Origin: Takakia lepidozioides
Taxonomy: Eukaryota; Plantae; Bryophyta
DNA: 64,000 nucleotides
Assembly: GCA_030704615.1 (NCBI GenBank)
Contig: CM060733.1
Coordinates: forward strand, 31,000,001-31,064,000
Direction: 5' to 3'
Shown: positions 27,925 through 61,539 of the stretch, one piece after another
How positions within the stretch are numbered: the stretch's first letter is position 1
Layout: each line of letters begins with the position of its first letter
The notes under the pieces: model-generated
What the model was told of the DNA's origin: nothing
The model's database searches: none
The model's input: only the letters and a program-made list of their open reading frames with translations
Position numbers and translations under genes: made by a program

Positions 27925-28095
27925 GCTGAAAGGATCGACTCAACGTTGCCATCGGTGTGGCAAACGCGCTGGTGTACCTGCATCATGAGTGCCCGGAGCA
28001 CAGGGTGTACTGTGATCTGAAGCCTTCTCACGTTTTCCTTGACAGAAAGGCCAAGAACCACATCACCGACCTTCGCATCCCACGCTTTGCTACAG
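27925..28095 (+). pseudogene. Captured receptor-like kinase fragment (subdomains VIa-VII) in the 5' region of copy 1
   Basis: Manual translation DRLNVAIGVANALVYLHHECPEHRVYCDLKPSHVFLD matches the RLK consensus RLxIAxxVAxALxYLHHxC..IVHCDLKPSNILLD. Confidence 0.8.
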
Positions 28096-33510: not shown

Positions 33511-33511
33511 A

Positions 33512-33873
33512 GTGCACAAGAAGATTCGGCGGGAAGGTGACTCCTTCCGACCGGAAAAGAAGTGGGATAGGCCACGCGGCGAAAATGGCACGTGGAAATC
33601 GAAGGGAGGGCCTTCACACGTCAAGGCAGCACCCGGTGCTTCGAAAGGAAAAGCGGGTGGAGCGGCTTATGGCGGACAGAAGGCGACCTTTGATGGAGTG
33701 TGTTTCAATTGCGGGGAGCCCGGGCACATGGCCAAGAAGTGCACGAAGCCCCGACAATTGAACATGACTCGGGCGACCACGGAGCTGTCGGAAGATACCA
33801 TCAGTCGCTTGGTGGAAGCGGTGGTCGCCAGGACTTGCAAGGTAGGCAAATTTTCTTGTGAGTTGTATCAGGA
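33512..33873 (+). pseudogene. Inverted gag C-terminal fragment with CCHC zinc knuckle
   Basis: CFNCGEPGHMAKKC (CX2CX4HX4C) on the strand opposite to pol. Confidence 0.85.
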
Positions 33874-34272
33874 GGTTTCACAACCAGCCATGCCATTTTA
33901 TGGCGAACCACCACGAAGACCCTCGATTCCCGGTGGTGAGTCGCGGTGAGTCTTGGCCCGCTGACCACGGCCCCTATGGACCGTGATGAGTCCCAAGATT
34001 CCCCACGACTCCCACCACGAGGTTTCCGCCCCCATGGTGAGTCATATGCCACCCCCACTAAGTCCCACTAAGCTACCACCACCCCTTGTGGAGCCACCCC
34101 CACCGCAACCCGGTGTGCGGGGTTCCACCTAGTGAGCGCCTCCGCTTCCCTGAGTGCCTTGGGCACTCAAGGGTGCCTCAGCCCCCCATACCTATCGCTG
34201 CCGCTGCCCCCACCACAGGGGCAGCCCCTCATGTGTCCCGACCCCCTGCCCTCAAAGTAAAGGGCCGCGACA
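33874..34272 (-). repeat. Truncated 5' LTR of the chromovirus
   Basis: Matches 28843-29241; the remaining ~330 bp of LTR, the PBS and the gag 5' part are missing. Confidence 0.88.
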
Positions 34273-38202: not shown

Positions 38203-39258
38203 AACAACCGTGCATGCATTGACTGCCGTCTTGCTTTCTCTCTAGGCATTTGGGGGTCTGTGATCTGCTACACGTAAGTGTCTTTGAAGGCGATGATCAA
38301 AGGATCCGGTCACTTGCAGTTGCCGTCTCAAGGGCAGCATTGCAAGAATCACAATTAAGTAAGAAAGATGGTGGAAGAAGCTGCAAACTGCAAATGAGTG
38401 AAGTGGCAGGGCGATGCTCCATTCTTAACATGCTCCCCTTCCCGCCATGGTGATAGAGCCACACAAATGGACTCCCTTCCCGCCACGGTGCAATTTCAAG
38501 GCAACGGAACAGGATTGTTCGCCGAAACGTGATTTGGAGATCGCGGCCAAATCCGTGATGGAATTCGACCTTCCAATACATGATTTCCTCAATCCGTCTC
38601 GCTCTTCCGCTGAGGGTGGCATTGGGCGAACTACCCCCTGCTACAAACTTTTGATCGTAATGTGATTTTGAGAGACGAATCGCTGTAGCCGGAAATTGTG
38701 CAGACGATGACCGCCGATGAGTGGAGTTCACTCATTATGGCCTAAGACAAGTGGCGCAGGTTCTGGCCTTGTAGTTGGGTTGTTCACACTTCAATGCACA
38801 CATTTCATACACATTCAACCATATGCCCAAGATCACGACGTCCTGAATCGTGAAAATTGAAATTCCACGTACGTCCTCCGATTCGTCACACACACAAAAA
38901 CTGTAGAGACAGGTGGTTTTCCAAGATGTCGTTGTTTGAGTCGATTTTGGTCATTTCTCTCAGTGTCTTGTTGAAAAGATTCTAGTTATGATGGGAAGCA
39001 TCTTGATGGCTTTTAAATGGTTTGCTGTTGAGTGTAACTTTCCATCATGTTCTGGAATCTACCAGTTGGTATAAAATGTCAATTGTCTTCTCTGCCAAAG
39101 GATGTGCGGCTGAACCTTTCAAATTGAGATTGCAGGAGGAGGGAATTGACGGTAGTGAAATGGGAGTGGCAGAGCCAAATTGAGGAGTCTCTGCAAAGGA
39201 GAATCCGGCCCCCTGCAACGGCGTGCACAAACTGCATTGAAGAGGCTCCCCAACAAAA

Positions 39259-42200: not shown

Positions 42201-43277
42201 GTATGTTGGAATTACATATATATTGTCACAAGTCATTCCGGCCACTATGGGAGTGGGATCGTGTACTAACAGGGTGCTTCAGATGACTACAGAGGGTGTT
42301 TCGTAGTTGGTGTTGTTGCTTGCAAGTGATTATGAAGTAGGCTGCATCACTACAGTGTGCTTGAAATGACACAATCTGCATGTGGCATGCATGTACAGTA
42401 CGGTGTTGGTCCAGGGGACTGAGTTGCAGATTCTATTTGGTTTCTGCCAGAAAGTACGCAGCAGAGAAGGTCCGCCTGAAAACGGAACGGAGTGCATTTG
42501 CAAAAGCATGGCGGAGGGGCGGTTGTAGGCGCAGATCCCCGGTGGAGTACCCCACAACAATGGAGGAGCTGCAGCCCTTTACAGTGTGGGTCAGATCTGC
42601 AATTGCAGTGTACGCATCAGAGAACGAGGACCCAGATGAGGGCATGGTGAGTCTGTCATTCCCCCCAGGGCTGATTGCCACTTCGTACCGGTCAATGAAA
42701 GCATATGGCAATCATTATAGAGTGGACGATGCCAACACCAGCCTCCTGGTGACTTATGACAACGGAGTGGCATCATTTTTTGAACAAGAGAGTAGGAGCT
42801 ATGCACGAGATCGGAATCCAATTTCATGCCCTGTGCAATATGTAGGAGTCATCAAAGAGATCCTTAAACTAGACTATGGTCTTGTAAAACCAATTCTATT
42901 CCGTTGTTCTTGGGTAAAAGCCAACATGGTAGGAGAGAATGCCACCATGAAACGAGATGAGTACGGGTTCCTCCTTGCTGATTTCAGAAATGCTACCACC
43001 ACAAGATAAAGAGCCATTCATCTTCCCATCGCAAGTTGAGCAAGTTTTCTTTTCAGATGACACCCATGCGCCGGGATGGAAGGTGGTTCTTCACAAGGAC
43101 CCCCGGGCCAAACGAGTCGTGGCCGACGTCCATGATCTGGACCTAGGAGAGAATGGCGACCACGAGGGTCTGAGAGAACCACAAAATCTACCAGATACGG
43201 CCGAACCAGTCTCTTTGGAAGGAGCAGTTACCTTTAATGAGGAAGTCATTCCAGGGTTGATAATTATCGCAAGGTAA
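39259..43277 (+). pseudogene. CACTA Tnp2-family transposase (Transposase_21, DUF4218, DUF4216), several frameshifts
   Basis: MPCPCERC, YVKIHACPK..CPKCG..KVLRHFPLIPRL, DSLAWKHID..FAEDPRNVRLA, YNLPPW, DVYLQPLIEELQELW, ILWDLPYW, GMKSHDLH, FPPSFFDVMTHLLVHL, RWMYPMERY, EPFIFPSQVEQVFF. Confidence 0.95.
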
Positions 43278-45180
43278 ATTGCAGATATGGGCAGTGAAGG
43301 GGAAGATTCTTTGGATATAGATAGTGAGCCCAACTGAATCTCAGCGTCCATTAAGCTGGTAGCTCGTAGACGAGAGCTGTGCTAAGGACTCTTACTGTCC
43401 TTAGAACCCATTTTGTACAGTCCTGCAAGCGCGCAAGGGTGAGACAATTAATAGTATCGATAATGTCCCGGAATGTGGTCCGTACTGTCTTGTGAACAAA
43501 CCTATATTTACAGTATGATTGTAGTTCAGAACCAAAGGGCATATCCTTCAGCCTTGACGTCTTTGCGATCTTCTGCTGTGACGCCTTCTTCATAACTTGA
43601 GAAATGGAAAAGCAGCTACACCTCAAATTATTGCAAGGCCACTCAATGGCACTAAGAACGCTTCGAGTATGCTGTCAGAAAACTAGACGGGCAAAAACCC
43701 AATTCAGCAGCCTCACCTTGCGTGGATACTTGGGAATTGATACCAGAAGGGCATGCCCGTATGCGCGCTCGATCGTGCCTCCATCCAGCACATTCTGTAA
43801 ATGTTGAATGACCAAGACCCCAATGTTACACCCTTCTGAGAAGCCACTACACGCGCTCACAGTATACGAAGGCCTTGCCGTGTCAGGATTCGCATTCCCA
43901 TGTCCTGCCATGTCCGACAAAGCACTTGCATCCCTGTCTCTGCCAGGTGGAGGCAGCACGTATTAAAATATCTATTCCCCCAAGGCCACATTTGATTTAC
44001 CTCTTTTTGTGAAAGCCACGTCAGCAAATGTGCTGCCGAGTCATGGGTGCAATGAATGCGCAGTGGTTCATGGAGTCGTTGAGTCGACTACATATTCACT
44101 TTAATGAATAAATATCTTTATTCCATTAATCGAATTAGAAAAGGAAATTTGTAGTCGCATGTGCAGTAATTACAACCACTTGTAATTTTGGCTTTTTTCA
44201 AATTTTATGTATTTACGCAATTCGTAAAATAGCCCGGAATTCTGCTACGACTCCGGAGTCGTTGACACTTCTGTCCGCCGTCTGAAATGCCCCCGTGGGC
44301 CCACATTGTCTGTTTTGACTCTCCAGTAGTCCAGTTTACTACCAAGTGGTTCCCGGAGTGGTCGCGGACATGCAGTCGATTCGGAAAAGACACGAATGCT
44401 TCTAGTGACCTCCTACACCTTACCATCATGCAGAGCGAGGCACTTTGAGAGAAGTCTGGCAGTTGATAGCATAGATCAGGATTAGATCTTGTTTGGTCGG
44501 GCCTCTATTCTTCCCCTCCCTCTTTGTACTATTTTCATTACTTTGTACTTGTAGTTGCCAAAGCCTCTCTTGGTGGAGGCCAGTCAGTCCGGGGTTTTGG
44601 GCTGGGATATTCTGCAGGATCAGCACTGCAGATGGATTTGGTGTGGGGGTGGTTGATGTTTTGATTTCTTGTGTTTGGATCCCCCCAAACACCTGCATGC
44701 TTGAATGTGCGCCATGTTGGTTTTGTGTGGGTGCTTGCTTTCATAGGGATTAGGCCGGATTTGATCACCGGGCAATCCTAGAGTATGCTGTCGGTGGTGA
44801 GGCTAGAGTGATGACCAGCAAGACCACCAGTGTTTCTTCTATGGTGAGATTGGGTTGATGACCAGCCAACCATATAAGTACTTGCGGTGGATGCAGGTGC
44901 AGGTGCCCTGAGCCACTGGGATATGACCCTTAAATTGCAACAGGTGCCCATCCATGTCACTATTAGAATTAGTAATAGAGCCTTATAGTGTCACGTAGGG
45001 GAGGTGCACATTGTGAGTGTCATTACGGAGTTACCCAAGGGTTCTGAGGGGAGTACAGCTACAGGCAGTAACAATGAGAGTGGGTTCACAAGACGAGGGA
45101 TTTGGTTCAGACCACCTTCACCTCCACCCTCAACTACTGTAGAGTCTGACACAGACCCGAAGGCTTCATCAACAGGTGTG

Positions 45181-45775
45181 AACTGGATTGCCTGAGCTTC
45201 AGTAACCCCTTGGGTCACACTTATCAAGCGCCTCATACGAGTGTAAGCCTCTTGCAGGCTCTCACTGGATTTGCGCTGGAAGTCTTGCAAACTTCGCAGC
45301 TTCTCTGTCCGTACGCCTTGGTAGTTCCTCCGCAACTCGTGGAAGAACTCCACCACCGGGCTGAATCTAGGCACGTGTGTTGTAGTCGTGGCAGGAGGAA
45401 TAGTAGCACCTTCTGCAGAAGTACTGGCACTACTTGTTCCACTACTAGTGCTGGCAGTGGGAGGTATTGGTGCTGATGTCGCTACTGGTCACGTCGTGCC
45501 TCGAGTAATGGAGACGTAGTCAGGTGACCAATACATCCTCCACTCTTTAATCTCCGCTTCATGTCCTCACCTGAACTCGAGGTAATCGTCCATAGGCGGG
45601 CCTTCCAAATGCTGGAACAATCCCTTCCACGCCATGAATGGGGTGAACAGCTGTGGATTGCGCATCTGCTGCAAATCACATCAGCTGTCGAACTCCTGGA
45701 TAAAGTCATCCAGCTCGATTGTGCCCACAGCTCCAGAGTACCTGCGAGGCCCCTTGGTAGCTCCATACATCTCCT
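45181..45775 (-). pseudogene. Inverted gag segment of copy 1 (continues at 57720-57750)
   Basis: Reverse complement of copy 2 ~49830-50440 (RRNYQGVRTEKLRSLQDFQRK..AYTRMRRL). Confidence 0.92.
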
Positions 45776-46130
45776 TGTCAAGTTAAATAAGCACAGTGTG
45801 AAACTAGCTAGAATAAAGCTAGTTATTTGTATTTAACACTTGGATTTAGGTCAAGTGTTAAATCAGGTGTCAAGTTTAGTTTGACACCTGACCCGTCTTA
45901 TCTTCACGAGAGCGGCAGTCGCGCAGCTCATCTTTCTCGAGTTGAGCCTGCGCGACCGAGCTCCTTCATGCGTTTAGATTTGAGTGTGCTTATGATGGGA
46001 GTGTAGGTTGTTGTGGGGTGGAGTCCCCATAGCTTGGGGTGCCCCTGGCTCGACTTCTGTTTTAAAGAGTGATAGCGATGGATTCATGTTGTTTCTGGTG
46101 TGAGCAGTGTGTTTTCTAGTTTTCTTATCA
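45776..46130 (+). repeat. 5' terminal repeat A1 of copy 2
   Basis: 45776-46128 equals 57282-57634 except for one C/T; ends TTATCA. Confidence 0.95.
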
Positions 46131-46144
46131 CTCGAGAAAGATGA
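46130..46144 (+). promoter_or_regulatory. Putative self-priming PBS
   Basis: ACTCGAGAAAGATGA is the exact reverse complement of 45928-45942 inside A1. No tRNA-type TGG.. PBS is present. Confidence 0.8.
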
Positions 46145-46369
46145 CGCCGTATCTAGTTTTCTAGTGCTAAGCTAGATGTGACGTTTTTGTTTTTAAGCAC
46201 TATTATAATATAGCTTGGTCACGAGAGCCGGTAGTTAGACTGGCTATGTGTGCCTAGTGGAGCATAACAGGAAGGCAAGAACCACTCAAAGCGTCGTTGC
46301 AGCAGTTCTAACCTCCTGGGAATGTAGCGGGTCCAAGCTTTTTACAACAAGCAGGTGGGCTGGACCTGC

Positions 46370-47085
46370 TGTTTGGGTCTAAGAAGACTGGGTCGGCGGA
46401 TAGGCCTCTGTGGTTCCCAGGTGCAAAGGCCCCGTCTTGGGCTGGATGGATCTTTGGTTGGTGACTATGGTTTCGATCCACTGTCCCTGGGAAAATCTCC
46501 AGAGTATCTGCAGTTCGAGCTGGATTCACTGAACCAGAACTTGGCTAAGAACCCTGCTGGAGTCGTGATCGGAACCCGTCTTGATAAGAAGAAGGATATC
46601 AACCCCACTCCCTTCCGACCGTACAGTGAGGTGTTCGGCCTCCAAAGGTTCAAGGAATGCGAACTGATCCACGGTAAATGGGCAATGCTTGCCATTGTTG
46701 AGAGTTGTCTGTCGAGACGTTCACTGGCGTGACATGGCAAGATGCTGTAAAGGTGGAACTTGCTGATGGTCCCTCTTACTTCGGTCTCTCGTTGCCGTTC
46801 AGCATCTCTGCTCTTGTCTGGATTGAGACTCTTGTGGTAGGATACATTGAGTTCCAAAGGAATGCCGAGTTAGACCCAGAGAGGCGTCTGTATCCTGGTG
46901 GCAAGTACTTCGATCCCCTCGGACTGGCAGCTGACCCCGAGAAGAAAGAGGTTCTAAAACTCGCCGAAATTAAGCATGCAAGGCTGGCCATGGTTGCTGC
47001 TTTGGGTTTTGCTGTGCAAGCTGCTGCTACAGGCAAGGGTCCCTGGACAACTGGGCCACGCACCTGAGCGAATCCACTCTCACTT
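46370..47085 (+). pseudogene. LHCB4: Captured Lhcb4 (CP29) chlorophyll a/b-binding protein sequence, frameshifted
   Basis: [25 protein letters not shown], the CP29-specific [79 protein letters not shown]. An A23 run follows at 47116-47138. Confidence 0.93.
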
Positions 47086-47169
47086 GCCTGCTGAAAGCAC
47101 CCATCAGCTTTCTTGAAAAAAAAAAAAAAAAAAAAAAACTGTTGGCCTTGTCAGTCTTGTTCACCAAAA

Positions 47170-47502
47170 TCAGTGGGACGTGTAGGCATTACCAAGGCAC
47201 CAGTGAAGGTTGTTGACTTTACCAAGCGAAGTGTGGTAGAGGGCGAGAATGTTGTCATTTGCCACAACGTTATGTTTCCTTCGGCTCTCTACTACTGCCA
47301 TCATGTCACAGGAACCAAGGTGGTGCAGGCGTCGTTGGCAGCTGTAGATGGATCAATCATTCACGCAGTCGCCATATGTCATTTGGATACCAGTCTCTGG
47401 GCATCAGAGCATCCTGCCTTCACGGCTCTCAACATTATTCAGGGAGCCGAAGCATGCCATTGGTCAACTCAGAATGATCTCATCTGGGTGCCCTCCCACT
47501 GA
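47170..47502 (+). pseudogene. Captured BURP-domain C-terminal fragment
   Basis: Four CH motifs: VICHNVMFPSALYYCH..AVAICHLDTSLWASEHPAF..EACHW..DLIWVP. Confidence 0.9.
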
Positions 47503-48344
47503 TGAGGTCCGACCTCTGCTCTCGTTGCTACCGTTTCCAAGTAGTTCTGGGGATCGTAAGGTCAGCTCAGTGGAAAGTACTCTTGCCTATTTCCCTGCCA
47601 ATCGTCCTTTAACCTGCAACGGGCCTCTTGAATAGGCACATATATCAGCCATCAGCAACAATTTTGCATGCATACCTACATAGGTTTTCGGTGTTGATGC
47701 CCAGACACAAGGAATTTCAATTTGCTGTAAAGTGTTAGGCTGGTAGCAGCAGTCTTCTGCATGACTTCTCAAAATCTACCGCTGATGTAGAGCTGAAAGG
47801 CATGTGGAAATGCTTTGAGACTATGTCGGAGATCATCAATCTCGGATGCGCTTAAGCCCAGGCGCTCGAGCTCTGCCGTTGTCCCCAATTCGGTGATGCA
47901 GGGCAATCCGTTATCGCACGCCTGCTGCTCCAGGGTGTGATACCCCATCCATAACTGAGGTCGAGTCTTGGAGTTGAGAGTTCTTGGTGCCTGGAGAAGC
48001 CTGGAGGGGAACGGCCTCGGGAACCCATAGATAACCTGGGAACAGGTTGTAATGGCGAGAACGTTTTGGTGTTAAAAAAAAAAAAAAACCTTTTGATCTA
48101 ATTTAAATGATTTAGAGCCTAACTGTTCATAACTTTGTCAGATGGACTCCGTTTGACTCAGTTTTTGGGAGGATAGCTGCAGAAAGGGGAAATCTACCTA
48201 CCTAGATTCTGTTTCTGTTTTTGGGACTCTGCTAAAAATCTATGGAATTTTTAGAGTGTGAGTGTGCCATAAAAGATCCACAATCCTGTCTCTAGAACCT
48301 GTGCTGGTCTATATGAGAGACAAATCTGTGGATGTACTCCTTGC

Positions 48345-49095
48345 ATGGCTGGGGGAAATGAGGACGTAATTGAAGGGCAGGTCTCTTCTCTTAGCCATGC
48401 ACACAAGGGGACAGGATTTATGTTTCCCAAGGAATTCAGACTGATTTGAGTGGAGAACAGTTGGACGAGTTGATTGCATACTGGGAGTCAGGCATTAGCA
48501 GTAGACAACAGACTGCTGTAGTTGGCATTGAGGGCCTCAATATCGCCTTGGACAGTCAGAACTCTGTTGGAGCCAGCAGTTCTGCAGCTGTAGGTGAAAT
48601 ACCAAAGTGGGTGAAAGCTAGGCTTGGAACACAGCCAAAGACAGCCCCGGGGACCAAGGTGTTCAGCCACAAGGCCGTGGTGTACTAGAGCAGAGGAGCA
48701 GGAGGAGCTACACAAGTTTGTGCAATCAGACATGTTGCAGCCGGATACGCTCTGCAAGGGCAACCACGAGCGGGGGTTCATCAGCAATGACATGTTTGTT
48801 GTGCGTGAAGGAGATGCAGTCATTCGCAATGAGGACACCCCGCAACCGTCTCAAAGCTTTCGAGTTGAGAGACTATCAGACCCTACCTTTGTTTTCTTTA
48901 GTATTCAGTGAGCGGGAGATAGGGGAGTATTGCTTTGTCTCTACCTGGCAGAAAGAGGAGGAGGGTTGGTTAGAGCGAGCTACTGTAGCTTGGGACAAGG
49001 TTAGTGGCAGGTTTCTGGACATAGATATACCTCCTACACCTTACCATCATGCAGAGCGAGGCACTTTGAGAGAAGTCTGGCAGTTGATAGCATAG
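48345..49095 (+). pseudogene. ORF0 upstream of gag, unknown function (homolog in copy 1 at ~28465-28515, 34278-34909, 44411-44475)
   Basis: Both copies encode MAG.NEDVIEGQVSSLS..SGEQLDELIAYWESG..RNRLKAFELRD..WLERATVAWDKVSG..LREVWQLIA*; disruptions differ between the copies. Confidence 0.6.
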
Positions 49096-49619
49096 ATCAG
49101 GATTAGATCTTGCTTGGTCGGGCTTCTATTCTTCCCCTCCATCTCTGTACTATTTTTATTACCTTGTACTTGTAGTTGCCAAAGCCTCTCTTGGTGGAGG
49201 TCAGTCAGTCCGGGGTTTTGGGCTGGGCTATTCTGCAGGATCAGCATTGCAGCTGGATTTTGGTGTGGGGGTGTTGATGTTTTGATTTCTTGTGTTTGGA
49301 TCCCCCCAACACCTGCATGCTTGACTGTGCGCCATGTTGGTTTTGTGTGGGCGCTTGCTTTCATAGGGATTAGGCCGGATTTGATCACCGGTCAATCCTA
49401 GAGTATGCTGTCGGTGGTGAGGCTGGAGTGATGACCAGCAAGACCACCAGTGTTTCTTCTATGGTGAGGCTGGGTTGATGACCAGCCAACCATAGGAGTT
49501 CTTGCGGTGGATGCAGGTGCAGTGCCCTGAGCCATTGGGATATGACCCTTAAACTGCAACAGGTGCCCACCCGTGTCACTATTAGATTAGTACTAGAGCC
49601 TTATAGTGTCACGTGGAGG

Positions 49620-52550
49620 AGGTGCACATTGTGAGTGTCATTACGGAGTTACCCAAGGGTTTTGAGGGAGTACGGCTACAGGCAGTAACAGTGAGAGTGG
49701 GTTCACAAGACGAGGTATTCGGTTCACCCCACCTTCACCGCCACCCTCAATTACTATAGAGTCAGACACAGACTCGGAGGCTTCATCAAGGTGTGCACTT
49801 TCATTCACCATTGTTGTGGGACGACATGGAGGAGATGTATGGAGCTACCAAGGGGCCTCGTAGGTACTCTGGAGCTGTGGGCACAATCGAGTTGGATGAC
49901 TTTATCCAGGAGTTCGACAGCTGGTGTGATTTGCAGCAGATGCGCAATCCACAGCTATTCACCCCATTCATGGCGTGGAAGGGACTGTTCCAGCATTTGG
50001 AAGGCCCGCCTATGGACGATTACCACGAGTTCAGGCGAGGACATGAAGCAGAGATTGAGGAGTGGAGGATGTATTGGTCACCTGACTACGTCTCCATTAC
50101 TCGAGGCACGACGCGACCAGTAGCTGCATCAGTACCAGTAGCTCCCACTGCCAGCACTAGTAGTGGAGCAAGTAGTGCTGGTACTTCTGCAGGTGGTACC
50201 AGTTCAAAAGTGCTACTACTCCTCCTGCCACGACTACAACACATGTGCCTAGATTCAACCCGGTGGTGGAGTTCTTCCAGGAGTTGCGGAGGAACTACCA
50301 AGGTGTACGGACAGAGAAGCTGCGAAGTTTGCAAGACTTCCAGCGCAAACCCAGTGAGAGCCTGCGAGAGGCGTACACTCGTATGAGGCGCTTGATAAGT
50401 GTGACCCAAGGGGTTACTGAAGCTCAGGCAATCCAGTTTTGGTATGGAATTCTGGACAAGGAGCTCAAGAGAAGGGTGCGAGATGCAACCTTGTTACAAG
50501 CAGCCCAACCCACATTAGCAGATGTGTTTCTGCTGGCTGAGCGGATTGAGCTCAACATGGTGGAGGAGCGAGTTGTTACAATTGGATTTGGCAAGGACAT
50601 GCCTGCACGGGGCACAGCTGTCAGCCCACAGGCACAAGGGACTGCCCAACAGCGTGGTCAGGGGGGCAAGGTGCCCAGCCCAAGTTCCATGGAGCTTACA
50701 GGGGACCTCAGGTGCAGAGGCCCGTGCATCTTTTGCAGGCCAACAGCAACCAGGGGTGATATGTTGGACATGTGGAGGACCCCATGTCAAGAGAGATTGC
50801 CCAGAGAGTGGCAGAAGGCCGGCACAAGCACAGCCTGCACAGTTGCAGTGTGGGCATTGTGGCAAGTATGGGCATGGAGATGCCCAGTGTTATGACTTGC
50901 ATCCTGAGTTGCGCCCAGGCCAGTTCCAAGGGAACAATGGTGGCCGGGGGCGAGGTGGACCAGCCCAGAGAGGACGAGGTGGTCGGGCACGAGGTGCAGG
51001 CCAAGGGCAAGCTCAACATGGCCAAGGACGCGGAGGTCAGGGTGTTGATCAAGGCATGGCCAACCGGCTTCAGCAGCTAGAGCAGAGGCTCGCTGCCATG
51101 GCTATAGCTCAGGCGGTACCGGCTCCCAGGCGGGATGGTCCACCTCCTGCTCCCAAGGGAGGAGATATGGGAGGCATGGGATTTATGTGCGGAGCAGCAC
51201 TACCACTAGAGCAGGTGGAGTCTGCTGCAGCCGTGACTCGAGGAGCAGCACGAGTTCCTGAGCCACGAGGTGCAGAGGTGGAATTGGATCCACAGCGTGG
51301 GGAGGCAAGCCGTCAGGCGAGGCTTCCTCAGTCATTCACATTGGCGGAGACTGTGTCGACGCCATCCATGGCACCTAGTTCTCGCCCGACTGTTACCGAG
51401 GCGGAGGTTACTATGCCATTGGGGAGAGCTACACGTGCAGCATGACTCCTGCTGCCAAGGCTAGTGCGGCCGGTGTGTTATTGGGGGCAGCCACCTCTGT
51501 GTGTCAGGCCCCACTGTTCTCGGCAACAATGATTGCGACGCCGGGGGTGAGACCAGCTGCAGTGTTCAGACTAGCAGCAACACTCTGTGAGAGTGGGGAG
51601 GTCACTTCATCTTCTGCGGAGTTAGTGGAAGGTGTAGTGGCAGAGGGATCCTCGGATTTGAGGGTCAAGACTGCCACGGCTGCGCCATGGCAAGCTGCAG
51701 CTGCCAGGTTGACGGAGCTGCCAGCTAGGCCAGCCTTTGAGCGCGCCACGGTGACACCTGGAGTTGTCTTGTTAGACAACCAGGGAGGCATTTTCACTCT
51801 GAGTGGACCGGCAGGCAAGAAGTACCGGCCACTGCGGGTCTTGTTGGACTCGGGAGCTCAGCCACTGATGTTGGGCAGAGCTGCTATTGCAGGTTTGGGC
51901 CTCATGGAGGCGGATATGGAGCCTTGTCCTTTCCAGATACAGACATCTCTGGGAGGATCAGAGCAGGCTCGGGCATGACACGGCATCAGTTGGCCATTAG
52001 ACTGCAGCCGGATCATCCTAGAGATGGCTCAGTGATGCGAGCCAAGGCCATTGTGACAGACGCGGTCTCTTACGATGTCCTCGTTGGTGGGGCAGTGTTA
52101 TACCCCATGGGCTTCACCCTGGACTTTTGGGAGGAGTCAGCATCCTACAGGCCTGGATGGCAGTCAGGCGATGGTCGCCGTGCACAGCTCCCTGTGACAT
52201 TCATTGGGGGTATAGCGGCTGCCCAGCGGGGCAAGATGCCAACACTAGCCGCCTTTACAGCTGCAGTTAGTTGGCCTGGAGAGTTGCTGGAAGGCAATGC
52301 CCATGCAGAGGATGTGCCACCTCCAGCAGAGCAGGATGACATGCATGGTATGGCGGAGTTGCCTGCCATGGTTGCTCACACTCCATTGTGGGGTACGAGC
52401 AAGGATTTGCAGCAGGTTGCTGATCGACGGGTGCAACAAGCCTGGGTAGAGGCTTTTGTACCGTCAGAAGAGGAGGAGAGTGCGGGTATTGCACCAGGAC
52501 CACCTCAGTTGTCACCATTGGATACCACACCTATTGTGTGGCAGTATCCG
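49620..52550 (+). pseudogene. gag (two zinc knuckles) and aspartic protease of copy 2
   Basis: Capsid-like ELRRNY..FQRKPSESLREAYTRMRRL, CWTCGGPHVKRDC, CGHCGKYGHGDAQC, protease VLLDSGAQ (~51840) and YDVLVG. The start is approximate; several 1-nt frameshifts. Confidence 0.88.
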
Positions 52551-52559
52551 GATGAAGGC

Positions 52560-53525
52560 ATTTGCCTTCTGGACTTGTTTGGCGGGATCAGCACTGGATT
52601 GGCTGCTGTGCTACAGGCAGGTGTGCGGGTAAGGTGTTACCTGTATGTGGAGAGGGATGAGACTGCACGACGCGTCTCACTGCGCCATGTTGCTCAGTTG
52701 GTACAACAGTACCCTGCTTTGTTGCCAGTGTCTGCAGTTCGTGGATACCAACAAGCCTTGCCAGCAGACATTTCGTTGTTGGGGGCGCCGGATTTGGAGC
52801 AGGTTGGCTCCATTGATCTGGTAGTGGCAGGTTGGCCCTGCCAAGGGCATTCATCAGCCGGGCATGGCAATGGATTGCGAGACTCGAGGACGGGTCTGTT
52901 TTGGGAGATGGTGCGGATTTTGCGCCACTTGCAGCTTCATCAAGCTGTATCGCCAGCATACATCTTGGAGAATGTGCCACTGATGGGCGATTCTCGGGCC
53001 AGGGTGATGGCCAGTGTGCATCAAGTCCGGTCGTGGCTTGGGTCAGCAGTGTTGCTGGATGCAGCTGCAGTGGGGTCACGGGCTCATCGTCCACGGCTTT
53101 GGTGGACTAACTTGATGCCACCTGCACTACTCAAGCGTGCATTTGATGGGGTGCAGCGGCCAGCACACCTCACCGTGGATGGCATTTTGGACACAGGGAG
53201 GCAGTCTCAACGTGTGAGACACGATGACCGTTCGCCTTTGGCAGTGGTCAACAGGGTGGGTCAACCACGAGCAGCATTACCTACACTGCTCAGCTTCCCA
53301 GGATCCCATGCTTTTCGGGATGGTGGACCTGGCCTCCTGTGGGATGCTCAGTTGCAGCAGTTAGTGGAGCCTAATGCCGACGAGCGAGAGCGGGCTATGG
53401 GGTTTTCCACTGGGACCACGGCGGTGCCTTCTCTTTCTGAGGCATCACGTCGTCAGGTGTTGGGGCAAGCAATGGATCTCAATTGCTTGACCTGGATTAT
53501 CAGCTTGGCTATGGCTGAGCAACGT
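52560..53525 (+). CDS. C5 cytosine DNA methyltransferase domain (DNMT3-like) inside the retrotransposon polyprotein
   Basis: Uninterrupted frame with motif I LLDLFGGISTG, II YVERD, IV DLVVAGWPCQ, GLFWEMVRIL, VI YILENV, VIII SRAHRPRLWWTNL, IX ERERAMGF and X RRQVLGQAMD. Confidence 0.95.
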
Positions 53526-53804
53526 AGAGTGCGGAGTGCACTCCCTTCATGGTCTCTCTGCCTACCGAGACGGTACAGGCAGCGAGTGGGGGGAGCCGGT
53601 GAGGACCACGGGGTGTAGACATCCATGGCACACGTGGGAGGTGCTCGAGGTTCAGAGGGAGTTGGCAGCCAAGGCAGCTGTGATGGATGAGGTTGGGGAT
53701 TCTTCTCGGGATGAGGAGGTTCTCAATGATGAGATGATGGGGCAGGATGAGGCCTTGTCATGACTGAGCAGGAAGGGAGTACTGCTCAAGAGGTTGCAGC
53801 ATAG

Positions 53805-56800
53805 CAACCACGGGACGCGTCCTCTACCTCTAAGCCCACTGGACTTAAGGTTGCAGTTACGGAGGACAATTGGGAGCCTGACATTGGACCCATTGTCACC
53901 GGAGGAGAGAGACGACGTATACGGCGGTTCCTGAGGGCTTACAGAATTGTTTTGCCTTCAGTTTGAAGGACTTGGGAGCACTGAAGGGTCAAGAGATTGA
54001 ATTGAGTTGGCCACTGACACGCCAATCTTTCGGAGACCCTATAGATACAGTGACATGGAGAGGTCCTTGATTCAGATGAGAACTCAGGATCTCTGGGAGG
54101 CAGGTTTGGTGGAGCTCTCTGGTGGAGAGTATGCTTCAGCCACAGTGATGCCAGCCAAGAAGGATGTCTATGGCAATTGGACGGAGAGACGTATGTGCGG
54201 TGATTACCGGCCTGTAAATCGTCAGACCAAGTCCGATAGGTATGCCATGCCGACACCAGAGGAGATCTTTGATGCCATTGGGCATTCCAAGGTCTTTAGC
54301 ACGTTGGATTTACGATCCGGATATCACCAGTTGCCGATCAAGGAGGCGGATAAGCAAAAGACGGCATTCTGGGGGATCAATGAGCACGGGAAGGATTGCC
54401 TATACCAGTGGCGGTTCTTACCATTTGGGCTTAAAAACGCTCCCGCTGAGTTTCAAAGAGTCATGGACAGGATTCTAGCAGGGGTGGAGTTTGCTCGGTG
54501 CTACATAGATGACATCATCATCTTTAGTGCTACGGTGGAGGAGCATGAGAGACACCTTCAGGGGGTATTTGAGCGCTTGAGGGCGCACGGATTGAAGTTA
54601 CATCCGGGAAAGTGCAAGTTTTTCCACAACCAGATTGAGTATCTGGGTCACATGATATATCCTGGAGGATTGGGGGTACAGCAGACTAAGGTAGAGTCCA
54701 TTGCACAGGTTCCACGCCCCACGGATGTGAGCCGAGTTCGAGCTTTCATGGGGTTAGCAAACTATTACAGACGGTTTGTTAAGGGATTTAGTGCCATTGC
54801 AAAGGCTCTAACCAAGCTGACCAAGGTGGACCAGGAGTGGCAGTGGGAAGATGAGCAAGAACAAGCTTTTCAAGAGCTCAAGGCGAGGTTGACCTCGGCG
54901 CCCATCTTGAGACGACCTATCAGGGGGCGTCCTTTTCAGCTGCATACAGATTGGAGCATGCTGGGGCTTGGAGCGGTGCTCACACAGGTGGATGATGAGG
55001 GAAGAGAGTTCGTAGTGGCTTATGCTAGCCGCTCGAACAATGCTGCAGAGTCTAAGTATAGCTCATATGAGGGAGAATGCTTAGCTGCAGTGTGGGCCGT
55101 GGCACACTTCAGGTGCTATCTATACGGCAATCTCTTCACCCTTGTCACGGATCACCAACCACTCAAGTGGTTGATGGAGTCAGACAAGCTTACGGGGAAG
55201 CTTGCACGGTGGGCACTCATCCTTCAAGAGTATGACTTTCAGGTGGTGCATCGACCGGGTTTGGTCAATCGCAATGCAGATGGGTTGAGTCGCAATCCAT
55301 GCACGAGCCAACAGGATGACACTGGAGCTCGGTGGCATGGTGAGACGGACGAGGAGATGGTGCCCGGATGGCATGCATCTGCATTTCTGTGTATCTTGGC
55401 AGCGGAAGGCCAGGTTGGACCTGCAACAGGGATGACTGTAGATCAAGTGTCTGAGGACCCTGAGGCCAGCAATGAGCAAGGTGGCGCCAAAGATATACAT
55501 GAGGATTCAGTTGTGTTGGACTACCTCCGCACTGGAGACACGGCAGCCACTGTGACTGCCAAGGAGAGGGATCGGATCCTACAACGAGCCAAGAGGTTCA
55601 AGTGGGAGGGACACACCTGCTCCGAGTGTGGGAGGATGGTCGAGTGAGGATTGTGCCTCACCCAACACAGCGGGCACGGTTAGTGCGCCATGCCCATGAG
55701 GAGTTGGGGCATTTTGGGGTGCGACGCACTCATAGTCTACTGCAGGGGCAGTATTGGTGGCGTGGTATGCACACAGAGGTGCAACAATTTGTGGCTAGGT
55801 GCATGGTGTGTGACAGGGTGCGTGCTTCATTCAACGCCCCTACTCCACAATTGCACCATCTTCCGATCATGGGATTGGGCTACAGGTGGAGTCTTGACTT
55901 CGCAGGGCCATTGCCACTGACCATGCGCCACAACAAGTACGTGTTGGTGATGGTGGAGCACTTCTCCAAGTGGATTGAATTGGTTCCATTGCCTGATAAG
56001 GCTAGTGAGGGAGCTGCGTATGCATTCTTGGATTGTGTGCTTAGCCGATTCGGTGCTCCAGCTGAGGTACTCACGGACCAAGGGAGAGAGTTTTTGGGGG
56101 AGTTTCAGGCGTTGTGTGACAAGGCCTTGATAGACCACCGCACCACTTCTCGGGATCATCCTGAGGCCGATGGCTTGGCAGAAAGAGTTGTTCAGACAGT
56201 AAAGAGGGGTTTGCGCAAGTATGGCTTGCAGAAGGGACACCTAGGAGATTGGGACCTTCAGTTACCCTGGTTAGCCATGGGCTACAGGTTCAGCAAGCAA
56301 GCATCACTTGCCTCCTTCTCACCATACTTTCTTCTCTTTGGCCGAGAGCCGGATTTGCCTACATCCATTCGCAGAGAAGCTGCTACAGTTCTTAACCTTG
56401 ACGATCCGGACGTGTGGGCACGTGCATGTGAGCAGCGTGCAGAGTTGTTCAAGAGAGTCATGCCCATGGCTTTCGAGAACCTTGCCATTGCACAACACCG
56501 TGATACGTTGAGGTATGCTACCATACGTGGTGGGGGCTATCGTCCTGGGGTTTGGAGATTCAACCCTGGTGACTATGTCTATCTGCAGCAAACTGCTCCT
56601 ACGACCCTGGATGTGACTGCAGGACGTGTTATTTTGAGGATTCGAGAGGTCTTGCCCTCAGGCGTCTTGGTCTTGGAGGGTCGGGATGGCATAACTTGGA
56701 AGGACCATGTGCGTAATTGTGCGCCATGTCACCTTCCAAATGTCGATGGCAGGATTGACCCAAACCTGGCAGTGGTATCTGCAGGTTTGAGGTGCATGTT

Positions 56801-56935
56801 GTGTGGGTCTGCTAAAGGGGCAGCCACCATGCTGGTGTGTGATCGATGCTCTAGAGGTTGGCATATGGGATGCTTGACTCCACTCTTGAGATGGTTCCGG
56901 ATGGGGATTGGTTATGTCCACATTGCATTGGATAG
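53805..56935 (+). pseudogene. RT-RNase H-integrase-PHD of copy 2
   Basis: [81 protein letters not shown], then C4HC3 PHD. Frameshifts at ~53945-54000, ~55610 and ~56885. Confidence 0.95.
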
Positions 56936-57179
56936 TGGGAGTGGATACAACCATGGAAGGCTAACAAGAAACGCAAGGCCCAGCTACAGGAGACCTTGAA
57001 TACACGAAGTCCTGGCTCAAGTTCACAGATTGCAAGACGACGACTAACGATGGGGCTACTCTTGTACCCGGCCTCTTGGTCTATAGAGTTTGAGTACGAT
57101 AGGGACAGTGATAGAGGACTTAGTACGGCTATGGCTATTACGTCTTGTAGCTATCTGGAGGTAGAAGGACCTATCCACC

Positions 57180-57194
57180 AGCTAGGGGGGCAAT
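57180..57194 (+). promoter_or_regulatory. Polypurine tract
   Basis: AGCTAGGGGGGCAAT immediately before TGTGGT of repeat X1. Confidence 0.75.
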
Positions 57195-57719
57195 TGTGGT
57201 AGACTACTTTATTGTGCATATATGTGTGGTGTGGTTTGGACAGCGATGTAGTTGTGTAGCGATACGTATGCGCACGACAGCTGTCAAGTTAAATAAGCAC
57301 AGTGTGAAACTAGCTAGAATAAAGCTAGTTATTTGTATTTAACACTTGGATTTAGGTCAAGTGTTAAATCAGGTGTCAAGTTTAGTTTGACACCTGACCC
57401 GTCTTATCTTCACGAGAGCGGCAGTCGCGCAGCTCATCTTTCTCGAGTTGAGCTTGCGCGACCGAGCTCCTTCATGCGTTTAGATTTGAGTGTGCTTATG
57501 ATGGGAGTGTAGGTTGTTGTGGGGTGGAGTCCCCATAGCTTGGGGTGCCCCTGGCTCGACTTCTGTTTTAAAGAGTGATAGCGATGGATTCATGTTGTTT
57601 CTGGTGTGAGCAGTGTGTTTTCTAGTTTTCTTATTGTGGTAGACTACTTTATTGTGCATATATGTGTGGTGTGGTTTGGACAGCGATGTAGTTGTGTTGC
57701 AATACGTATGCGCACAACA
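57195..57719 (+). repeat. 3' terminal structure X1 (57195-57279) - GC - A2 (57282-57634) - X2 (57635-57719)
   Basis: X1 and X2 are 85-bp direct repeats (3 mismatches); A2 equals A1; the X1/A2 junction reads CAGCTG. Confidence 0.93.
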
Positions 57720-57751
57720 TCCTCCATGTCGTCCCACAATAATGGCGAAGA

Positions 57752-60700
57752 AGACAGTTGTAGTGTAGGCATTGTGGCAAGTATGGGCATGGAGATGCCC
57801 AGTGTTATGACTTGCACCCTGAGTTGCGGCAAGGCCAGTTCCAAGGGAACAATGGTGGCCGAGGGCGAGGTAGAGCACCTCAAAGAGGATGAGGTGGTCA
57901 GGCACAAGGTGTAGGACGAGGGCAAGCACAGTATGGCCAAGGACGTGGAGGTTAGGGCGTTGACCAAGGCATGGCTAACCGGCTTCAGCAACTAGAGCAA
58001 ATGATTGCTGCCATGGCCACAGCTCAGGTGGTACCAGCTCCAAGACCTGAGGGTCCACCTCATGTTCCTCCTCAGCAGCGTCATCCTGACGGAGGAGACA
58101 TGGGAGGCATGGGATTTATATGTGGGGCAGCACTACCACTAGTGCAGGTGGAGTCTGCTGCAGCCGTCACTCGAGGAGCAACACGAGTTCATGAGCCACG
58201 AGGTGCAGAGGTGGAGTTAGATTCACAGCATGGGGAGGCAAGCTGTCAGACTAGGTTGCCTCAATCATTCATCTTGGGGGAGACAGTGTCGACGACATCC
58301 ATGGCACCTAGTTTTCGCCCGACAGATACAGAGGCCGTTATTGTGCCATTGGGGAGAGCTACACGTGCAGCACTGACACATGTTGCCAAGGCTAGTGCAG
58401 CCAGTGTGTTGTTGGGGGCAGCCACCTCTCTATGTCAAGCCCCACTGTTCTCGACAACCATGATCGTGACGCCGGGGGTAAGACCAGCTGCAGTGTTCAG
58501 ACTAGCAGCAACACTCTGCGAGAGTGGGGAGGTCACTTCATCTTCTGGAGAGTTGGTGGAAGGTGTAGTGGTAGAGGAATCCTCGGATTTGAGGGTCAAG
58601 ACTGCCATGGCTGCGCCATGGCAAGCTGAGCTGCCAGGTTGACGGAGCTGCCAGCTAGGCCAGCCTTTGAGCGCGCCATGGTGACACCTGGAGTTGTTTT
58701 GTTAGACAACCAGGATGTCATTTTCTCTTTGAGTGGACCCGCAGGCAAGAGGTACCGGCCACTGCGGGTCTTGTTGGACTCGGGAGCTAAGCCACTGATG
58801 TTGGACAGAGCTGCTATTGCAGGTTTGGGCCTCATGGAGGCGGATATGGAGCCTCGTCCTTTCCAGATACAGACATCTCTGGGAGGATCAGAGTAGGCTC
58901 GGGGCATGACACAGCGTGAGTTGGTTATTAGACTACAGCCGGATCATCCTATAGATGGCTCAGTGATGCGAGCCAAGGCCATCGTGACAGATGCAATATC
59001 TTACGATGTCCTCGTTGGTGGGGCAGTGTTATATCCCATGGGCTTCACCCTGGATTTTTAGGAGGAGTCAGCATCCTACAGGCATGGATGGCAGTCAGGG
59101 GATGGTTGTCGTGTACAGCTCCCTATGACATTCATTGGGGATGCTGCTGCTGCCCAACGGGGCAAGATGCCAACACTAGCCGCCTTTACAGCTACAGTTA
59201 GTTGGCCTGGAGAGTTGCTGGAGGGCAATGCCCATGCAGAGGATGTGCCACCTCCAGCAGAGCAGGATGACATGCATGGTACGGCGGAGTTGTCTGCCAT
59301 GGTTGCTCACACTCCATTGTGGGGTATGAGCAAGAATTTGCAGCAGGCTGCTGATAGACGGGTGCAACAAGCCTGGGTAGAGGCCTTCGTATCGTCAGGA
59401 GAGGAGGAGAATGCAGTGATTGCACCAGGACCACCTCAGTTGTCGCCATTGGACACCACACCTCTTGCGTAGCAGTGCCCACATGAAGGCATATGCCTTC
59501 TGGACTTGTTTGGCGGGATCAGCACTGGATTGGCTGCAGTGCTGTAGGCAAGTGTACGAGTTCGACGTTATCTGTATGTGGAGAGGGATGAGACTGCACG
59601 ACGCGTCTCACTGCGCCATGTTGCTCAGTTGGTGCAGCAGTACCTGATTTGTTGCTTGTGTCTGCAGTTCGTGGATACCAACAAGCATTGCCAGCAGACA
59701 TCTCTTTGCTGGGGGCGCATGATTTGGAGCGGGTTGACTCTATTCACTTGGTAGTGGCAGGTTGGCCTTGCCAAGGGCATTCATCAGCCGGGCATGACAA
59801 TGGGTTACAAGACTCAAGGTCATGCCTGTTTTGGGAGATGTTGAGGGTCCTACGCTATTTACAGCTTCAGCAGACAGACCCTCCGGCATATATCTTGGAG
59901 AATGTGCCATTGATGGGTGATTCTAGGGCCAAGGTGATGGCCAGTGTGCATCAAGTGCGGTCTTCGCTTGGATTAGCAGTGTTGCTGGACGCAGCTGCAG
60001 TGGGGTCACGGGCTCATCACCCACGACTATGGTGGACCAACTTGATGCCACCTGCACTGCTCAAGTGTGCATTTGATGGGGTGCAGCGGCCACCACAGCT
60101 GACGGTGGATAGCATTTTGGACATAGGGAGACAGTCTCAGCGTGTGAGACACGATGACCGGTCACCTTTGGCAGTGGTCAATAAGGTGGGTCACCCACGA
60201 GCCACATTGCCTACACTGCTCAGCTTTCCAGGATCCCATGCTTTTCGGGATGGTGGACCTGGCCTCTTGTGGGATAGCCAGTTGCAGCAATTAGTAGAGT
60301 CCAATGCTGACGAGGGCGAGCGGGCGATGGGTTTTACCACTGGTACCACGGCGGTGCCATCTCTTTTTGAGGCATCGCATCGTCAGGTGTTGGGGCAAGC
60401 AATGGATCTCAATTGCTTGACCTGGATTATTAGCTTGGCTATGGCTGAGCAGCGCAGAGTACGGAGTACACTTCCATTGATGGTCTCCCTGCCTACCGAG
60501 ACGGTACAGGCAGCGAGTGGGGGCGAACAGGTGAGGACCACGAGGTGCAGGCCGCATCCATGGCACACGTGGGAGGTGCTCGAGGTTCAGAAGGAGTTGG
60601 CAGCCAAGGCGGCGGTGATGGATGAGGTTGGGGATTTTTTTCGGGTTGAGGAGGTCCTCAAGGATGGGATGATGGGCCAGAATGAGACATTGTCACTGAC

Positions 60701-61539
60701 TGAGGAGGCAGTGGTCACCGCTCAAGAGGTTGCAGCATAGCAACCACGGGACGCGTCTTCTACCTCTAAGCCTGCTGGACTCAAGGTTGCAGTCACGGAG
60801 GACAACTGGGAGCCTGATGTTGGACCTATAGTCACCGGAGGAAAAAGACGACGTATACGGCGGTTCTTGAGGGCTTACAGGAACTGCTTTGCCTTCAGTT
60901 TGAAGGACTTAGGAGCACTGAAGGGTCAAGAGATTTGCATTGAATTGGCTACTGACACGCCAATCTTTCGGAGACCCTATAGATACAGTGACATGGAGAG
61001 GTCCTTGATTCAGATAAGAACTCAGGACCTTTGGGAGGCTGGTTTGGTGGAGCTATCTGGGGGAGAGTATGCTTCAGCCACAGTGATGCCAGCCAAGAAG
61101 GATGTCTATGGCAATTGGACGGAGAGACGTATGTGCGGTGATTACCGACCTGTAAATTGTCAGACCAAGTCCGATAGGTATGCCATGCCAACACCAAAGG
61201 AGATCTTTGATGCCATTGGGCATGCCAAGGTCTTTAGCACTTTGGATTTACGATCCAGATATCACCAGTTGCCGATCAAGGAGGCGGATAAGCAGAAGAC
61301 GACATTCTGGGGGATCAATGAGCACGGGAAGGATTGCCTATACCAGTGGCGGTTCTTACCATTTGGGCTTAAAAATGCTCCCGCTGAGTTTCAAAGAGTC
61401 ATGGACAGGATTCTAGCAGGGGTGGAGGTTGCTCGGTGCTACATAGATGACATCATCATCTTTAGTGCTACGGTGGAGGAGCATGAGAGACACCTTCAGG
61501 GGGTATTTGAGCGCTTGAGGGCGCACGGATTGAAGTTAC
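57752..61539 (+). pseudogene. Copy 1 gag end, protease, C5-MTase (~59490-60460) and RT N-terminal part, with nonsense mutations
   Basis: Highly similar to 50840-54600: LLDSGA, GWPCQ, ILENV, RAHHPRLWWTNL, YIDDII. Premature TAGs at ~58894, ~59059, ~59470 and ~59545. Confidence 0.93.

What the first reader, a model, noticed from the sequence alone, without database searches (positions are those of the whole stretch)
56793..56935. PHD finger in place of a chromodomain at the integrase C-terminus
Seen: CMLC..MLVCDRCSRGWHMGCLTP, continuing after a frameshift as LEMVPDGDWLCPHC*, a complete C4HC3 PHD. Established: PHD fingers read histone H3 tails, chromoviral chromodomains at this position guide targeting, and DNMT3 uses a PHD-like ADD domain. 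Inference: a chromatin reader for target choice, paired with a DNA-methylation writer in one element. Copy 2 inserted into a TE nest, inside its own relative.
Basis: partly seen in the sequence, partly recalled or inferred. Interest (0 to 1): 0.7.

Follow-up and report, generated by a model that had tools for sequence, protein, structure and literature searches.

The report
PHD-tipped integrase of DNMT3-carrying Gypsy
A young copy of a green-plant jumping gene ends its integrase with a real PHD finger and also carries a DNA methyltransferase; the finger likely grips the free end of histone H3 to dock insertion on chromatin, and the pairing is the norm in a large, old, partly described family.

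Summary
The PHD finger is real: a C4HC3 at 56793-56926, split by a one-base frameshift that contigs from 4 of 4 laid runs lack. It is a lineage trait. 194 of 198 integrase homologs that extend far enough carry it, from volvocine algae and Klebsormidium to liverworts and Sphagnum; none has a chromodomain. It lacks the H3K4me3 cage tryptophan and keeps the H3-A1/R2 pocket, so it likely reads the free H3 N-terminus; this copy has lost the acidic K4 contacts. A DNMT3-like domain travels with it, but in two positions (before RT here; between RNase H and integrase in 57 algal-type proteins), and PHD without DNMT occurs, so a coupled reader-writer is not shown. The element matches KnitGypsy-Dnmt3 (de Mendoza 2018), and a PHD in a Gypsy polyprotein, with a targeting idea, is published for Chlamydomonas Gypsy-7a. 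Odder than the PHD are the ends: A…B-GC-A-B split repeats with a 4-bp target duplication and a self-priming site, as if integrase opened a circle. This scan noted the PHD pairing on other genomes at least four times and the ends once. Real, mostly known: 0.4.

The parts
56793..56926 (+). C4HC3 PHD finger at the integrase C-terminus; frameshift between 56882 and 56885; stop at 56933-56935
55671..56792 (+). Integrase: H2C2 zinc finger, rve core, SH3-like module without a GPY/F motif, and a conserved CAPCH linker
54001..55610 (+). Reverse transcriptase and RNase H; frameshift to the integrase frame near 55610
52560..53600 (+). DNMT3-like C5 cytosine methyltransferase domain, upstream of RT
49760..52200 (+). 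gag and protease region, broken into several frames (Retrotrans_gag E 7e-4, Asp_protease_2 E 0.08, both below cut-off)
45776..46128 (+). Repeat A1, 5' end of the element, begins TGTCAAG; 1 mismatch to A2 in 352 compared bases
46130..46144 (+). Predicted self-priming site: 15-nt perfect complement of 45928-45942 inside A1
   Evidence: 0 of 2,000 random internal windows reach 15 nt; the older relative has a 17-nt pairing with changes on both sides
46448..47487 (+). Captured host gene fragments in the 5' internal region: chlorophyll a/b-binding protein (two pieces) and a BURP domain
57180..57194 (+). Polypurine-tract-like stretch directly before B1
57195..57281 (+). Repeat B1 (85 bp, ends CACGACA) plus a GC spacer; the B1-GC-A2 junction is the palindrome GACAGCTGTC
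57282..57634 (+). Repeat A2
57635..57719 (+). Repeat B2 (3 mismatches to B1), 3' end of the element, ends ACA
45772..45775 (.). Target-site duplication TCCT, left copy
57720..57723 (.). Target-site duplication TCCT, right copy
26124..61539 (+). Older, fragmented relative of the same family that hosts this copy. Pieces at 26124-26493, 28159-28515, 34273-34909, 44408-45775 and 57720-61539; it stops inside RT, so it shows no integrase or PHD

Best explanation
This is the conserved C-terminal PHD finger of the integrase of a Gypsy-DNMT3 retrotransposon, and it likely binds the free N-terminus of histone H3 (Ala1-Arg2) so that the integration complex would dock on nucleosomes, probably away from H3K4me3-marked promoters. 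Shown: the fold signature, position, conservation, selection, absence of the methyl-lysine cage, and co-occurrence with DNMT3. Inferred: H3 binding, tethering of the intasome, and bias of insertion. The DNMT most likely acts separately, on the element's own cDNA, as de Mendoza et al. proposed; it need not touch the PHD. In this copy and many short-tailed relatives the acidic K4 contacts are lost, so binding is predicted to be weaker and less sensitive to K4 methylation than in the algal forms.
For: PHD present in 194 of 198 homologous proteins with room for it, and in 63 of 65 DNA loci. Among 172 strict fingers: Asp after the third Cys in 167, Gly (never Trp) two before the His in 165, Trp or Phe two before the seventh Cys in 171, and the preceding Pro in 168. 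By residue spacing these match KDM5B D328, W351 and P347, whose single-site Ala mutants (D328, W351) disrupt H3K4me0 binding (PMC4225485, passages). Nearest solved structures by sequence are DPF2/3, ATXR5, KDM5A/B, BHC80, MOZ, UHRF1 and BAZ2A/B; BPTF, ING and TAF3 are not in the lists shown. The model of an intact homolog (pLDDT 82.5) superposes on such PHDs at 0.7-1.3 A over about 48 columns. The domain follows the same SH3-like module as the chromodomain of the window's chromovirus. An active PHD-bearing Gypsy of Chlamydomonas inserts 2.6 times more often between genes than expected (PMC9940879, section read).
Against: No binding or insertion-site data exist for this family. The window finger lacks the acidic residue before Cys1 (KDM5B D308) and the 'acidic wall', whose neutralisation drastically weakens BAZ2A binding (PMC5415848, passages). 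Only 25 of 68 short-tailed fingers keep an acid in that loop, against 98 of 104 long-tailed ones. The structural hits also include KMT2C/D, MTF2 and an Ehd3-H3K4me1 complex. Gypsy-7a's bias could be selection, as its authors say, and I did not test whether it belongs to this lineage. One nested insertion says nothing about targeting in a window full of elements. The mapping to KDM5B residues is by spacing, not by a printed alignment.
Confidence: 0.62

Rival explanations
1. Coupled reader-writer: the PHD does the job that ADD does in animal DNMT3, steering or activating the element's methyltransferase on H3K4-unmethylated chromatin at the new insertion.
For: DNMT and PHD occur together in 29 of 32 loci that span both and in all 57 proteins with DNMT between RNase H and integrase. 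There the DNMT ends only 92-294 residues before integrase and could stay on the same processed protein. The two DNMT types are 36-45% identical in most long alignments, which suggests one capture that was kept while the domain moved.
Against: In this copy RT, RNase H and integrase lie between the two domains, and protease cleavage normally separates them (established knowledge of Ty3 pol). P0221 spans protease to PHD with no DNMT; P0220 and P0228 lack it at the algal position. Gypsy-7a's figure legend lists a PHD and no DNMT. Shared descent alone explains co-occurrence.
Confidence: 0.15
2. The finger no longer reads histones in the land-plant branch. It serves as a zinc-stabilised surface for integrase multimerisation, DNA binding or another host protein.
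For: Acidic H3 contacts are lost in this copy and in most short-tailed relatives. A near-invariant upstream CAPCH motif (Cys in 171 of 172, His in 165 of 172) suggests tight packing with the SH3-like module.
Against: The H3-A1 and R2 pocket residues stay almost invariant in the same set (Asp in 65 of 68, Trp in 65 of 68).
Confidence: 0.18
3. The PHD is an H3K4me3 reader that draws insertions to promoters.
For: Only the general fact that many PHDs do this.
Against: 0 of 172 fingers has the cage Trp two residues before the His.
Confidence: 0.03

Closest known systems
KnitGypsy-Dnmt3 of Klebsormidium nitens (de Mendoza et al. 2018, PMC5890265; section 9 and passages read, supplements searched; named 'Gypsy-DNMT3' of streptophytes in preprint 10.64898/2026.05.21.726589, passages)
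   Same: Gypsy domain set with a DNMT3 inside pol. Its figure legend says the repeats are arranged as in DIRS. K. nitens integrases P0033 and P0061 fall in one clade with the window (SH-aLRT 98, quick tree), and P0033 carries the PHD.
   Different: 'PHD' has 0 hits in its main text and in the one supplement with hits; I cannot see Fig. 4c, which may draw it. Only K. nitens is described there. Land-plant members, the algal RT-RH-DNMT-IN-PHD order, self-priming and the 4-bp duplication are not in the text I saw.
Gypsy-7a_cRei of Chlamydomonas reinhardtii (Craig et al., PMC9940879, section 13 read)
   Same: Gypsy whose Gag-Pol holds a PHD. It is active, with an intergenic insertion bias, and the authors already suggest the PHD limits harmful insertions.
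Chromoviruses (Neumann et al. 2019, PMC6317226, passages; the window's own element at 28840-34273)
   Same: A reader domain at the integrase C-terminus after an SH3-like module; self-priming, as in the Tcn1/Tf1 clade.
   Different: No chromodomain in the window copy or in 240 homologs; GPY/F motif not kept; permuted ends; DNMT3.
Unmodified-H3 PHD readers: KDM5B PHD1, BAZ2A/B, UHRF1, BHC80, DPF3 PHD2, ATXR5
   Same: Nearest by sequence and fold; shared A1/R2 pocket; no aromatic cage.
   Different: The window finger lacks the K4-contact Asp and the acidic wall.
EpiLTRs (preprint 10.64898/2026.05.21.726589, passages)
   Different: They use a chromodomain with DAM and a DNMT4-like enzyme, not PHD with DNMT3.
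Tyrosine-recombinase retrotransposons with split direct repeats (PAT, Ngaro, TOC1; names recalled)
   Same: A…B-A-B arrangement of terminal repeats.
   Different: This element has a DDE integrase, TG…CA ends and a 4-bp target duplication.

Membership tests
PHD finger | C4HC3 zinc ligands with canonical spacing | tested here: met
   All eight ligands present across the frameshift; Pfam PF00628 above cut-off on the N-part and full length in intact homolog L001 (44.9 bits)
PHD finger | PHD fold | tested here: met
   Model of intact homolog L001 superposes on solved PHDs at about 1 A; the window's own broken finger was not folded
H3K4me3-reading PHD | Aromatic-cage Trp two residues before the zinc His | tested here: not met
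   Gly in the window and in 165 of 172 fingers; Trp in 0
Unmodified-H3-reading PHD | H3-A1 pocket (Leu, Pro, Gly, Trp) and R2-binding Asp | tested here: met
   All present in the window; near-invariant in homologs; positions mapped by spacing from PMC4225485
Unmodified-H3-reading PHD | Acidic residue before Cys1 for K4, and acidic wall before the first strand | tested here: not met
   Absent in the window; common in long-tailed algal-type fingers (81 and 98 of 104), less so in short-tailed ones (37 and 25 of 68)
Unmodified-H3-reading PHD | Measured binding to an H3 peptide | not testable with these tools
   No H3 sequence or binding assay available
Gypsy-DNMT3 (KnitGypsy-Dnmt3 lineage) | DNMT3-like domain inside pol | tested here: met
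   Pfam PF00145; best PDB hits DNMT3A/B
Gypsy-DNMT3 (KnitGypsy-Dnmt3 lineage) | Gypsy order RT-RH-IN with DDE integrase | tested here: met
Gypsy-DNMT3 (KnitGypsy-Dnmt3 lineage) | DIRS-like arrangement of terminal repeats | tested here: met
   A…B-A-B in the window and in L007, L015, L040, L055, L070
Gypsy-DNMT3 (KnitGypsy-Dnmt3 lineage) | Phylogenetic grouping with the K. nitens element | tested here: inconclusive
   Groups with K. nitens integrases (SH-aLRT 98, quick tree only); these were not shown to be the published element
Chromovirus | Chromodomain at the integrase C-terminus | tested here: not met
   None by Pfam; no hit of the window's chromodomain among 240 homologs at E<0.01
Chromovirus | RT-RH-IN phylogeny inside the chromovirus branch | not tested
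   No reference set (REXdb, GyDB) available; a single outgroup sat on a very long branch
DIRS / tyrosine-recombinase retrotransposon | Tyrosine recombinase instead of a DDE integrase | tested here: not met
   rve integrase present; no recombinase among the element ORFs scanned (short ORFs and most of 47.5-49.7 kb not scanned); 4-bp target duplications

The most novel reading that the evidence does not exclude
An ancient, green-plant-wide clade of Gypsy elements combines three things: a histone-H3 reader on integrase, its own DNMT3, and integration from a circular intermediate. Self-primed reverse transcription gives B-A…B-A; the ends are joined; integrase then opens the circle at an internal palindromic CA-nn-TG site, dropping the 2-bp spacer and making a 4-bp duplication. 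In the algal branch DNMT, integrase and PHD would form one protein that reads H3K4-unmethylated chromatin, inserts there and methylates the new copy.
Probability: 0.3. Interest if true: 0.8.

Novelty: new variant of a known kind. Interest (0 to 1): 0.4.

Why it matters
Chromodomain targeting of retrotransposons is established, but PHD targeting has been proposed repeatedly without a test that I could find. This family gives a clean test set: nearly 200 natural fingers, with and without the acidic K4 contacts, with DNMT3 in two positions and sometimes absent. The work also extends Gypsy-DNMT3 from one charophyte to liverworts, mosses and volvocine algae. The permuted ends with precise duplications point to a DDE integrase using a circle, a route usually treated as a dead end. 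Standard LTR finders may mis-delimit such elements.

Tried and rejected
No whole genome is held, so there is no genome-wide copy count or insertion-site survey. Assembly or chance artefact of the PHD: rejected. H3K4me3 reader: rejected. Foldseek's top hits to Tudor-PHD proteins (PHF1, UHRF1; rmsd 12-14 A) reflect domain order only; the barrel is the integrase's own SH3-like module. No RNA holder was listed; run X7 is only guessed to be RNA, so its in-frame contig is no evidence of expression. Whether the other frameshifts of this copy are real could not be settled from reads. Against the older relative, 9 of 13 indels are single bases (7 missing in this copy; 5 of 9 in base runs), which is many for repeats differing by 1 of 352 bases and hints at assembly error, unproven. 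The regex and the break position were wrong and were redone. The self-priming test on other loci was positive in only 1 of 5 (L007, 17 nt perfect), perhaps through decay. The careful tree did not finish, and the VIA fold search did not run. The REM1 paper is not held and is recalled only. No complex prediction was run, as no H3 sequence was available. A sequence look-up in earlier findings was blank. Paper searches for the PHD-plus-DNMT3 Gypsy found no text describing it; subscription papers, Repbase and Craig's thesis are outside the library, and bioRxiv supplements (Grau-Bové Table 6) could not be seen.

Full report
Observation. The integrase frame (55503-56996) reads CMLC-x11-CDRC-x4-H-x2-C-LTP from 56793 to 56882. 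The rest of the finger, LEMVPDGDWLCPHC-IG-stop, lies in another frame from 56885. The first part alone passes Pfam PHD (30.9 bits, cut-off 24). A profile from 172 strict fingers, out of 240 homologs, ranks the two parts first and second among 2,940 six-frame pieces of the window. Contigs of 4 of 4 laid runs are one base longer at the break; the best holder may be the sample the window came from. So the family is in frame, and the break is private to this copy or is an assembly error.

The element. It runs from 45776 to 57719, begins TG, ends CA and is flanked by TCCT. It holds captured chlorophyll a/b-binding and BURP fragments, then gag, protease, a C5 methyltransferase nearest to DNMT3A/B, RT, RNase H, integrase and the PHD. 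Its two A repeats differ at 1 of 352 bases, so it is young. It sits inside an inverted gag piece of an older relative about 90% identical, itself interrupted by a chromovirus and by CACTA-type transposase pieces. The nearest named homologs are liverwort proteins (Calypogeia P0003 83%, Riccia P0056 85% over about half the query), so the host is probably a bryophyte. Summed contig depths of roughly 10,000-50,000 in most bins of one run suggest many copies, though this is no copy number.

The PHD is a lineage trait. Two searches listed the best 120 of 601 and the best 120 of 389 homologs. Of these 240, 198 extend far enough and 194 carry the PHD; three of the four exceptions begin the finger and then drift out of it. 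Named carriers include Haematococcus, Pleodorina, Volvox, Tetrabaena, Klebsormidium, Marchantia, Calypogeia and Sphagnum. Among 80 metagenome loci (best 80 of 209), 63 of the 65 with room carry it; many loci are near-copies. Synonymous differences exceed non-synonymous ones about threefold in 7 of 7 comparisons with the window finger. None of the 240 has a chromodomain-like hit. The integrase core and SH3-like module align with those of the window's chromovirus, and the PHD follows where that element has its chromodomain. 'In place of' is therefore true of position; descent was not tested.

What it likely reads. Nearest solved structures by sequence are DPF2/3, ATXR5, KDM5A/B, BHC80, MOZ, UHRF1 and BAZ2. 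A model of intact homolog L001 superposes on them at about 1 A. The cage Trp of K4me3 readers is absent in all 172 fingers. The Asp after Cys3 (167 of 172) and the Pro and Trp/Phe of the H3-A1 pocket are kept; by spacing these are KDM5B D328, P347 and W351, which contact H3 R2 and A1 (PMC4225485, passages). Against this reading, the window finger has no acid before Cys1 and no 'acidic wall' (PMC5415848, passages). Long-tailed algal-type fingers keep an acid in that loop in 98 of 104 cases, short-tailed ones in 25 of 68. I infer a free-N-terminus reader, perhaps weak in this branch. Binding is untested.

Reader and writer. DNMT and PHD occur together in 29 of 32 loci spanning both. Long proteins show two orders: DNMT before RT (window, P0132, P0137, P0177), and DNMT between RNase H and integrase (57 proteins, e.g. 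Pleodorina P0157). On a quick integrase tree of 106 rows, the window, liverwort and Klebsormidium proteins form a clade of 43 (SH-aLRT 98) apart from the second type; short proteins were left out and the root is unreliable. The two DNMT types are mostly 36-45% identical. P0221 spans protease to PHD without DNMT. ADD domains belong to animal DNMT3s (PMC12344493, passage). Long co-retention is real; physical coupling is not shown and is least likely in the window's order.

The ends. The layout is A1, internal region, purine tract, B1, GC, A2, B2. A B1/B2 pair appears in 23 of 57 loci with enough 3' sequence, about 15 distinct insertions judged by shared flanks. Five loci show the whole pattern, and four of those five have a clear 4-bp duplication. 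The B1-nn-A junction is near-palindromic in 24 of 57 loci. Its 2-bp spacer is missing at the outer ends, while the A2|B2 joint varies between copies. A 15-nt complement of A follows A1; the older relative keeps the pairing through changes on both sides; it was perfect in only 1 of 5 other loci. My inference: self-primed reverse transcription makes B-A…B-A, the ends are joined imprecisely, and integrase opens the circle at the internal site. Foamy virus integrase is reported to cleave palindromic circle junctions (PMC1180852, abstract). L016 and L072 end at B1 with 4-bp duplications, which could come from double cutting, B1-B2 recombination or assembly collapse.

What is known. De Mendoza et al. 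describe KnitGypsy-Dnmt3, with DNMT3 in pol and DIRS-like repeats; 'PHD' does not occur in their text, and the figure could not be seen. Craig et al. report a PHD in active Gypsy-7a with a 2.6-fold intergenic bias and suggest it limits harmful insertions. PHDs are called widespread in retrotransposons, and a 2026 preprint describes reader-plus-methyltransferase 'EpiLTRs'. Seven searches found no text on integrase-PHD in Gypsy-DNMT3. This scan has noted the same pairing in four notes on other genomes and the permuted ends once; I had written my reading before seeing them, and they are not independent support.

Verdict. Observation confirmed; interpretation partly supported. It works like a chromovirus reader module but is not shown to be a chromovirus; it fits the Gypsy-DNMT3 lineage. 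New variant of a known kind, interest 0.4. The additions here are the two DNMT positions, the branch-specific loss of acidic H3 contacts, and a young copy with precise permuted ends.

Noticed in passing
window 45776-46144 and 57180-57723: Split direct repeats A…B-GC-A-B with TG…CA ends, a 4-bp duplication, a palindromic internal junction and a self-priming site, on an element with a DDE integrase; repeated in related loci.
   Followed up: yes
window 46448-47487: The element carries fragments of a chlorophyll a/b-binding protein gene (Lhcb4-like, name recalled) followed by an A-run, and of a BURP-domain gene: captured host transcripts in its 5' internal region.
   Followed up: partly
window 45181-45775 and 57720-57745: The older relative has an internal inversion of about 640 bp and lacks about 400 bp of gag; the inversion predates the insertion, since the target duplication lies within it.
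   Followed up: partly
window 28840-34273 (minus strand): A full chromovirus (403-bp LTRs 98% identical; protease, RT, RNase H, integrase, SH3, chromodomain) inserted in the same older relative.
   Followed up: partly
window 40574-42161: CACTA-type transposase pieces (Transposase_21, DUF4218) within the nest.
   Followed up: no
window 8153-9619: A 489-codon uninterrupted frame of a ubiquitin-activating enzyme E1 (ThiF, FCCH, 4HB), a host gene or retrocopy.
   Followed up: no
window 21963-22516 and 62154-62426: A 65-bp tandem array of about 8 units, and a degenerate 9-10-bp GGCTGTG-type tandem array.
   Followed up: no
window 50839-54601: Seven single-base losses relative to the older relative despite near-identical terminal repeats; possibly long-read assembly errors.
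   Followed up: partly
P0164, P0157 and 55 other proteins: Algal-type polyproteins with the order RT-RNase H-DNMT3-integrase-PHD and a further 100-400-residue tail after the PHD; not found described in the papers seen.
   Followed up: partly
L016:2910-11550 and L072:1850-11549 (approximate): Copies that begin at A and end at B1 with 4-bp duplications (TACA, ATTA), lacking A2-B2.
   Followed up: partly
L076 and L078, about 340-860 bases after the PHD: A 176-bp inverted duplication of the start of repeat A near the 3' end.
   Followed up: no
window 56718-56732: A near-invariant CAPCH motif about 20 residues before the PHD; it could add a zinc site or pack the finger onto the SH3-like module.
   Followed up: no
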